From the NCBI GenBank assembly GCA_964016885.1, contig OZ024753.1:40238001-40302000 (forward strand): a stretch of DNA of 64,000 bases, given 5' to 3'. The translations under genes were made by a program, and so were the position numbers. The number at the start of each line of letters is the position of its first letter. The stretch's first letter is position 1. This DNA comes from Eledone cirrhosa. Taxonomy: Eukaryota. Below the pieces are notes generated by a model, which did no database searches, was not told the origin of the DNA, and saw nothing but the letters and a program-made list of their open reading frames with translations. Positions 58,490 to 58,697 of this stretch are shown piece by piece.

Positions 58490-58697
58490 CTTCTATGTTG
58501 TTTACTTGTCTCACTCGCTTTACGCGATTTACTTGTCCCAATAGGTTTATTTAGCTATTGCTCTCACCAACCTGAGGTATATGATTTTTAATGCGATGAA
58601 ATACCAATGAAGGTTGGAAAATCACTGACGAAGGACAAATTTATTATATGTAACCCATGTGCAACCACGCAGTATTCTTCTTTCTTCTCATGTTTTA
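58490..58697 (+). mobile_element. Family C copy with candidate permuted hammerhead at 58533-58638
   Basis: Homologous to 4684, 5022 and 13545; pairing detailed in findings. Confidence 0.75.

What the first reader, a model, noticed from the sequence alone, without database searches (positions are those of the whole stretch)
58533..58638. Candidate scrambled-order (pseudoknotted) hammerhead ribozyme in family C
Seen: all core strands are present in exact register but in a non-circular order. First ggtaU-A17-tgatttt (58576-58588), then a 9-nt linker and GAAA-tacc (58598-58605), then aaaatca-CUGACGA-a (58618-58632). Stem III = ggtat/atacc. Stem I = tgatttt/aaaatca, ending immediately before C3. 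Pair 10.1-11.1 = A-U (G-U in the 5022 copy). Scaffold helices are ccaacct/aggttgg (ccaacg/cgtttgg in the 5022 copy), caatag/ctattg and ttgtcc/ggacaa. Across copies CUGANGA varies only at N (C, G, U). Known: types I-III HHRs are circular permutations of UH, CUGANGA, GAAA; this order is UH, GAAA, CUGANGA. It occupies the position where sibling families have a normal HHR. Inference: a possibly undescribed hammerhead topology invisible to standard descriptors. Weakness: stem II is only ~1 bp, and I cannot check the literature.
Basis: partly seen in the sequence, partly recalled or inferred. Interest (0 to 1): 0.9.

Follow-up and report, generated by a model that had tools for sequence, protein, structure and literature searches.

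The report
Rewired hammerhead ribozyme in Naiad-type retroelements
This is one of about 22,000 genomic copies of a hammerhead-like RNA whose catalytic pieces come in a rare scrambled order (reported in 2023 from environmental RNA), braced by extra helices and a likely kink; the same fold sits at the tail of some Naiad jumping genes thought to lack a standard ribozyme, so it likely cuts itself, though cutting is untested.

Summary
In detail: all hammerhead core strands are present in the order cut site, GAAA, CUGANGA. That order is published as type SGC (Eckert 2023), but from metatranscriptomes only. This copy belongs to a Penelope-like, non-coding 470-685 nt tandem repeat. An exact half-motif pattern matches 21,936 places in the genome (control 0). 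Across 8 subfamilies (47-91% identical) the 12 core columns never differ while the stems covary. In 24 motifs picked by their 3' half alone, stems III, I and c pair at 117/120, 141/144 and 95/96 positions. The same scaffold is in 7 of 57 Naiad 3' flanks from metagenomes (antisense 0) and, by eye, in 8 published Naiad consensi; two nematode Naiads show type CSG. This would explain part of the puzzle that Naiads 'lack canonical hammerheads'. There are no RNA data, cleavage is untested, and the mobilising partner was not found. The window copy carries two helix-breaking changes. Verdict: new variant of a known kind.

The parts
58474..58699 (+). 5'-truncated copy of the 526-nt non-coding tandem unit, ending at the unit's (TA) tract between microsatellites
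   Evidence: ends mapped (L001 extends 119 nt past the cut); unit length
58535..58538 (+). helix a, 5' strand (pairs 58633-58636); closes the molecule next to A9/10.1
   Evidence: (80.6% of cells paired)
58539..58560 (+). hairpin b, an arm of the four-way junction; this copy has a private C>G at 58545
   Evidence: compensatory variants seen by eye; pairs not counted by tool
58562..58566 (+). helix c, 5' strand (pairs 58592-58596); stands in for distal stem II; private G>T at 58564 breaks it in this copy
   Evidence: 95/96 paired out of sample
58567..58572 (+). helix d, 5' strand (pairs 58612-58617); same connectivity as the stem I-II interaction helix of type SGC
   Evidence: (5 of 6 pairs with two-sided change); PMC10085705 Fig. 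1 legend and text
58573..58575 (+). non-bulged strand of the predicted k-turn (3n, G2n, A1n)
   Evidence: A1n.G1b in 8 of 8 subfamilies, G2n.A2b in 6 of 8 (U.A in 2), 3n.3b mostly non-paired
58576..58588 (+). block S: stem III 5' strand, U16.1, A17, predicted cut 58581|58582, stem I 5' strand
   Evidence: cut triplets AUA 15, AUC 9 of 24
58589..58597 (+). UAA linker (invariant in 8 subfamilies), helix c 3' strand, position 11.1
58598..58605 (+). block G: G12 A13 A14 A15.1 and stem III 3' strand
58606..58617 (+). 3-nt bulge, G1b A2b, 3b of the predicted k-turn, then helix d 3' strand
   Evidence: (GA invariant, bulge variable)
58618..58636 (+). block C: stem I 3' strand, CUGACGA, 10.1, helix a 3' strand
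5071..5189 (-). copy of a very young sister subfamily (534-nt unit, copies about 99% alike)
4726..4845 (-). copy of a third subfamily (519-nt unit), one arm of an inverted pair
4892..5011 (+). other arm of that inverted pair
13598..13703 (.). two partial, inverted copies of the 3' half of the motif

Best explanation
This RNA carries a complete hammerhead core in the non-circular order cut site, GAAA, CUGANGA inside a Penelope-like non-coding repeat, and it likely folds as a pseudoknotted monomer that cuts itself after A58581. Shown by sequence and covariation: stems I and III, and scaffold helices a, c and d. Inferred: helix c replaces distal stem II; helices a, b, c and the G.A-paired core arm form a four-way junction; helix d ties the far ends of stem I and helix c; a k-turn between stem III and helix d bends the chain back so the knot can close. 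Inferred biology: transcripts of the tandem units would be cut into unit-length RNAs, as for retrozymes, and copied back by a Penelope-like reverse transcriptase starting at the unit's (UA) tract on (TA)n targets, giving fixed 3' ends, scattered 5' ends, tandems and inversions. The family is likely derived from the 3' end of a Naiad element and has outlived the Naiad genes in this genome.
For: Core: 0 of 12 core columns differ among 8 subfamilies, against 43/48 and 44/48 flank columns and most stem columns. Covariation: 17 of 28 pairs change on both sides, 91% of cells pair against 31-48% when slid (31 descriptor-selected rows). Out of sample: 24 of 29 motifs chosen by the 3' half keep the 5' half and pair III 117/120, I 141/144, c 95/96 (one-base slip allowed); cut triplets only AUA or AUC. 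Three homologues found by profile rather than descriptor (L206, L180, L175) also keep CUGANGA and GAAA. One subfamily junction joins the ribozyme 5' half to an internal site exactly at the predicted cut, without microhomology (17 of 30 loci sampled from 114 matches). Element anatomy: 23 of 30 and 23 of 30 copies end at the (TA) tract (one of them at 99 nt), 5' ends scatter. Naiad link: 7 of 57 3' flanks of Naiad-type genes carry SGC motifs, 0 antisense, 0-1 in shuffles, with 22-34 scaffold pairs each (at most 1 of 300 shuffles). Natural SGC ribozymes cleave in vitro (PMC10085705).
Against: No cleavage assay and no RNA data. The cut-site junction is one ancestral event, and no control at neighbouring positions was run. 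No tested hammerhead lacking a continuous stem II came up in my searches; 10.1 and 11.1 do not pair in some subfamilies (A.A) or in 7 of 8 Naiad motifs, 6 of them C.C. The subfamilies were seeded partly from a core-requiring descriptor, so core invariance is partly selected. The minimum-energy fold of one whole circular unit kept hairpin b but not d or III (nested model only). The window copy has two helix-breaking changes and may itself be weak. No 3D model was built. No intact Naiad gene was found in this genome (the last search was a floor), and no Naiad remnant here kept a 3' ribozyme (0 of 25), so descent from a Naiad rests on shared architecture and by-eye likeness to published octopus Naiad ends. 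50 of 57 Naiad flanks showed no hammerhead.
Confidence: 0.75

Rival explanations
1. The core is real but assembles from two molecules (a domain-swapped dimer), so no single-chain knot or k-turn bend is needed.
For: Small Penelope-associated hammerheads are reported to cleave as dimers (Lunse 2017; title seen in the reference list of PMC10085705). Copies occur in tandem. The far ends of stems I and III are distant in the known structure (stated in PMC10085705).
Against: A bend element sits between stem III and helix d in the motifs examined (k-turn-like loop, bulge, internal loop or inserted hairpin), as expected for intramolecular closure. Helix lengths are fixed, there is no palindromic stem III loop, and tandem spacing is 470-685 nt.
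Confidence: 0.1
2. The structure is kept as a binding site for the element's reverse transcriptase or a host protein, and cleavage is slow, protein-dependent or dispensable.
For: In the anole element the hammerhead cut only with the element protein and was not needed for insertion in vitro (PMC11167929, passages). Copy ends map to the (TA) tract, not to the cut. Box C/D-type k-turns usually need protein to fold (PMC5579392, passages).
Against: All 12 catalytic-core columns are invariant, and position 17 is never G in 24 out-of-sample motifs, which fits selection on chemistry. One junction lies exactly at the cut. Protein-assisted cleavage would still be cleavage.
Confidence: 0.12
3. The motif is a chance arrangement amplified by a repeat family.
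For: One amplified founder can give thousands of identical motifs; control (a) ignores relatedness.
Against: Subfamilies as little as 47% identical keep the core and swap pairs; the out-of-sample test passed; the same scaffold with unrelated helix sequences follows Naiad genes in other organisms.
Confidence: 0.02
4. It is a box C/D snoRNA-like RNA whose k-turn and CUGA boxes mimic a hammerhead.
For: The loop has C/D-like features (CUGA on the non-bulged strand, U.U at 3b.3n in some subfamilies).
Against: No Rfam match; G2n is U in 2 of 8 subfamilies; the other Naiad motifs keep the hammerhead core and mostly lack the k-turn; stems I and III covary around the cut.
Confidence: 0.01

Closest known systems
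Type-SGC hammerhead ribozymes (HRIMA-1 and variants), Eckert et al. 2023, PMC10085705
   Same: Block order S-G-C, intact core, short linker between stem I and the stem II side, and a helix joining the far sides of stems I and II.
   Different: Theirs have a continuous stem II between blocks C and G, with the bracing strand at the 3' end, and were found in metatranscriptomes, none in genomes of known organisms. Here the chain is opened at the base of stem II, the distal stem II strand and bracing strand come from the 5' side, helices a and b complete a four-way junction, and stem III joins the bracing helix on both strands through a k-turn-like loop. About 22,000 genomic copies against 583 sequences.
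Type-CSG hammerheads (same paper)
   Same: A circular permutation of the same closed wiring; two nematode Naiad consensi show it with a normal stem II (by eye).
   Different: Different opening point; only two published examples, from metagenomes.
Naiad Penelope-like elements, Craig et al. 2021, PMC8557442
   Same: Motif on the sense strand near the 3' end, (TA)n targets, tandem and inverted copies. Published octopus Naiad ends show the same a-b-c-d scaffold and k-turn (by eye).
   Different: Described as lacking canonical hammerheads, with 'HHR_core' and 'HHR_half_core' left unexplained. The family here is non-coding.
Non-LTR retrozymes (bioRxiv 10.64898/2026.07.22.740005, abstract and passages; Cervera and de la Pena 2020, title only)
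   Same: Non-coding tandem units with one hammerhead each, proposed to be non-autonomous derivatives of Penelope-like elements.
   Different: No permuted or pseudoknotted ribozyme was mentioned in the passages searched; circular RNA is not shown for this family.

Membership tests
Type-SGC hammerhead | Block order cut site, GAAA, CUGANGA | tested here: met
Type-SGC hammerhead | Conserved core C3-A9, G12-A14, A15.1-U16.1, H17 | tested here: met
   0 of 12 columns differ among 8 subfamilies; H17 is A or C
Type-SGC hammerhead | Stems I and III with covariation | tested here: met
Type-SGC hammerhead | Continuous stem II (2 or more pairs) between block C and block G | tested here: not met
   At most one pair: 7 of 8 subfamilies, 24 of 29 motifs; unpaired in 7 of 8 Naiad motifs, 6 of them C.C; replaced by helices a, b, c
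Type-SGC hammerhead | Helix joining the distal sides of stems I and II | tested here: met
   helix d, 95% of cells paired, 5 of 6 pairs with two-sided change
Type-SGC hammerhead | Site-specific self-cleavage | not testable with these tools
   no assay; only indirect sign is one genomic junction at the cut
Canonical hammerhead types I-III | Circular order of the three blocks around a three-way junction | tested here: not met
Kink-turn | 3-nt bulge followed by G1b.A1n and A2b.G2n between a canonical and a non-canonical helix | tested here: met
   1b.1n in 8 of 8 and 2b.2n in 6 of 8 subfamilies, A.U in 2; pair names from PMC5579392; the 3-nt bulge rule is recalled
Kink-turn | Kinked fold and L7Ae/15.5K binding | not testable with these tools
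   needs FRET, gel shift or a structure
Non-autonomous Penelope-like element (retrozyme) | Non-coding tandem unit, fixed 3' end at a microsatellite target, 5' truncation, inversions | tested here: met
Non-autonomous Penelope-like element (retrozyme) | Expressed as unit-length or circular RNA | not testable with these tools
   no RNA holder listed
Naiad-derived element | Sequence continuity with a Naiad gene in the same genome | tested here: inconclusive
   Naiad matches here are fragments, most with stops; no ribozyme after 25 remnants; tblastn of 8 Naiad proteins against 7 units gave nothing convincing (best E 0.049)

The most novel reading that the evidence does not exclude
Non-circularly permuted hammerheads are the missing ribozymes of a large part of the Naiad clade (SGC with a four-way junction in corals, a clam shrimp and cephalopods, CSG in nematodes). 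This genome's roughly 22,000 copies are an active ribozyme architecture with no conventional stem II, in which a k-turn, possibly bound by the host 15.5K protein, closes the knot and answers the geometric question left open in the 2023 paper.
Probability: 0.55. Interest if true: 0.85.

Novelty: new variant of a known kind. Interest (0 to 1): 0.72.

Why it matters
It would move non-circular RNA permutation from 583 environmental sequences to a high-copy feature of an animal genome. It gives a testable answer to why many Naiad elements seemed to lack hammerheads. It would show that the core tolerates replacing stem II with a four-way junction. It also supplies natural covarying variants and a k-turn handle for solving the structure, and offers a solution to how stem III and the bracing helix meet. 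Standard scans miss these motifs, so ribozyme counts in invertebrate genomes are probably too low.

Tried and rejected
Rfam: nothing in the window or in 20 Naiad loci. RNA evidence: no RNA holder listed; three contig-only runs from one sample confirm the motif and its variants but cannot show ends or expression. A short motif from the published octopus Naiad end is absent from this genome. A back-translated Naiad RT motif gave 8 matches against 8 for its control; several were decayed Naiad remnants. No coding frame of a partner element was found upstream of any ribozyme copy in the loci held. A profile search flagged no further convincing family beyond three degenerate copies. A relaxed six-order scan of whole Naiad loci gave mostly long-span hits inside genes, which I treated as chance. 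The greedy scaffold parser mis-assigned helices in L352 (84 of 300 shuffles as good) and in 4 of 7 own-genome cases plus helix c of the window copy, so those rows are not used. MAFFT could not align the distant Naiad motifs, and hairpin b was out of register in alignment A1, so it was left out of the pair counts. End mapping failed for the third subfamily. Viral contigs held no Naiad relatives. By eye, Naiad-2/3/4_Dst and Naiad-2_Skow did not fit clearly, and no motif was seen in Naiad_Ppla, Adux, Omin or 1_Skow. Literature searches; none linked SGC/CSG hammerheads to Naiads, animal genomes or a k-turn. Subscription journals and bioRxiv supplements are outside the library.

Full report
Observation. 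A nested fold recovers the closing helix, the upstream hairpin, the ccaacct/aggttgg helix and stem III (z -2.83). Rfam finds nothing in the window. The window holds three more full copies and a partial inverted pair.

The order is published. Eckert et al. 2023 (PMC10085705; main text parts 1-6 of 8 read; supplement parts 1 and 8) divide the hammerhead into blocks S, G and C and validate natural type-SGC ribozymes in vitro. The order here is S-G-C. They found none in genomes of known organisms, although RefSeq was searched. Their descriptors require CUGAUGAG or CUGAUGAUG and CGAAA, which this motif lacks. They also leave open how stem III and the stem I-II interaction helix can be directly connected.

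Anatomy. The layout, 5' to 3', is a, hairpin b, c, d, k-turn strand, S, UAA, c', G, bulge with GA, d', C, a'. Helix d has the connectivity of the published interaction helix. Helix c stands in for distal stem II but is supplied from the 5' side. In effect the SGC/CSG circle is opened at the base of stem II and closed by helices a and b, so that a, b, c and the core meet in a four-way junction (inference from the pairings). The loop between stem III and d reads as a k-turn: a variable 3-nt bulge, invariant G1b.A1n, A2b.G2n in 6 of 8 subfamilies and mostly non-paired 3b.3n (pair names from PMC5579392 passages).

Selection on the fold. A half-motif pattern matches 21,936 places in the 3.0-Gb genome, control 0. 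From 189 distinct full-length profile hits, 8 clusters of 4 or more copies (148 copies; 41 copies in smaller clusters were left out) are 47-91% identical. They differ at 0 of 12 core columns, at 43/48 and 44/48 flank columns, and at most stem columns. On 31 selected rows, 17 of 28 pairs change on both sides and 91% of cells pair, against 31-48% when slid. Because the seed came from a descriptor, I ran an independent test: 20 loci chosen by the 3' half only gave 29 motifs; 24 keep the 5' half and pair III 117/120, I 141/144 and c 95/96 (one-base slip allowed), with cut triplets AUA 15 and AUC 9. Over all 29, fixed-register pairing is 84.6% against 32-40% slid. Position 10.1-11.1 pairs in 24 of 29 (A-U, U-A, G-U), so a single pair is plausible in this genome but is not universal.

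The element. The motif lies in non-coding tandem units of 470-685 nt. In two subfamilies, 23 of 30 copies each end at or just before the unit's internal (TA) tract about 120 nt past the cut, and the rest run on into the next unit; 5' ends scatter from 55 nt to a whole unit. Inverted pairs are common. This matches the Penelope-like anatomy in PMC8557442 (passages) and internal initiation in PMC11167929 (passages). In one subfamily the ribozyme's 5' half is joined to an internal site exactly after the predicted cut, with no microhomology in the parent unit (17 of 30 sampled loci of 114 matches; 12 were point changes and 1 was a separate deletion). That is one ancestral event and is suggestive only.

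Link to Naiads. Craig et al. 2021 report that Naiads lack canonical hammerheads and flag unexplained 'core' and 'half core' cases (metadata). In their consensus file I viewed 60 of 62 CUGAUGA places and read parts 18, 19, 24 and 25, by eye only. The SGC order is present in 8 of 54 listed Naiads: three Acropora entries, one entry in part 12, Naiad_EuTe, Naiad_Obim, Naiad_Ovul and Naiad_Esco. The full a-b-c-d scaffold is clear in the coral, clam shrimp and octopus entries, the octopus ones with the same k-turn. Two nematode entries (Naiad-3_Nbra and one in part 15) show type CSG with a normal stem II. Other N7 variants were not searched, so 8 is a floor. For a tool-based test I took Naiad-type proteins (N-terminal GIY-YIG and C-terminal RT, weak Pfam matches below cut-off) and fetched 84 loci. 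Of 57 with at least 150 nt after the gene match, 7 carry a sense SGC motif, 0 antisense, 0-1 per shuffle; an eighth lies upstream of a gene. The seven have 22-34 scaffold pairs (at most 1 of 300 shuffles), and the join between III and d is a bulge, internal loop or inserted hairpin. Some of the seven are related to each other (L308 and L309). Fifty flanks showed no hammerhead, so the claim covers a subset of Naiads.

Open points. Naiad matches in this genome are fragments, most with stops, and none of 25 remnants kept a ribozyme, yet one subfamily is about 99% uniform. The mobilising enzyme is therefore unknown; another Penelope-like family acting in trans is the simplest guess. Cleavage, folding and expression are untested. 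Eight literature searches found no report of this architecture or of the Naiad link; the 2026 retrozyme preprint (abstract and passages; supplements not seen) and PMC13725137 (passages) do not describe it in what I read.

Verdict. It likely works like a hammerhead (about 0.85 for cleavage in some setting; 0.75 for the monomeric knot). It shares the SGC order but fails the continuous stem II criterion, so I file it as a new variant of a known kind. Interest 0.72.

Noticed in passing
window 13312, 14204, 16753, 25970 (+); 13971, 16683, 25961, 58318 (-): Eight canonical type I hammerheads with U.U at 10.1-11.1, near the ends of other repeats, several as inverted pairs.
   Followed up: partly
window 1295-2146 (+): 283-aa open frame resembling the C-terminal endonuclease part of a Penelope-like element by its motifs; no Pfam match at E 0.1.
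   Followed up: partly
window 16961 (-), 59121 (+), 27476 (+), 39826 and 40122 (-): Further CUGANGA...GAAA motifs in other repeat families, not parsed.
   Followed up: no
window about 59950-60050: Near-palindromic G+C-rich stretch with CUGACGA, inside a duplicated segment.
   Followed up: no
L219, L221: Shortened units in which the cut-site junction is followed after about 60 nt by a second ribozyme start; mini-units that may also be mobile.
   Followed up: no
L398 (-) 2296-4250; L110: Penelope-like genes with RT followed by a C-terminal endonuclease; the L398 one has a canonical-order hammerhead-like motif downstream. Candidates for the partner acting in trans.
   Followed up: no
L206 7976-8085 (-), L175 7273-7379 (-), L180 4113-4230 (+): Older, degenerate relatives of the motif, suggesting more subfamilies than the eight counted.
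   Followed up: partly
L374-L377: Naiad-type animal retroelement genes inside records labelled as bacterial genomes, probably host contamination.
   Followed up: no
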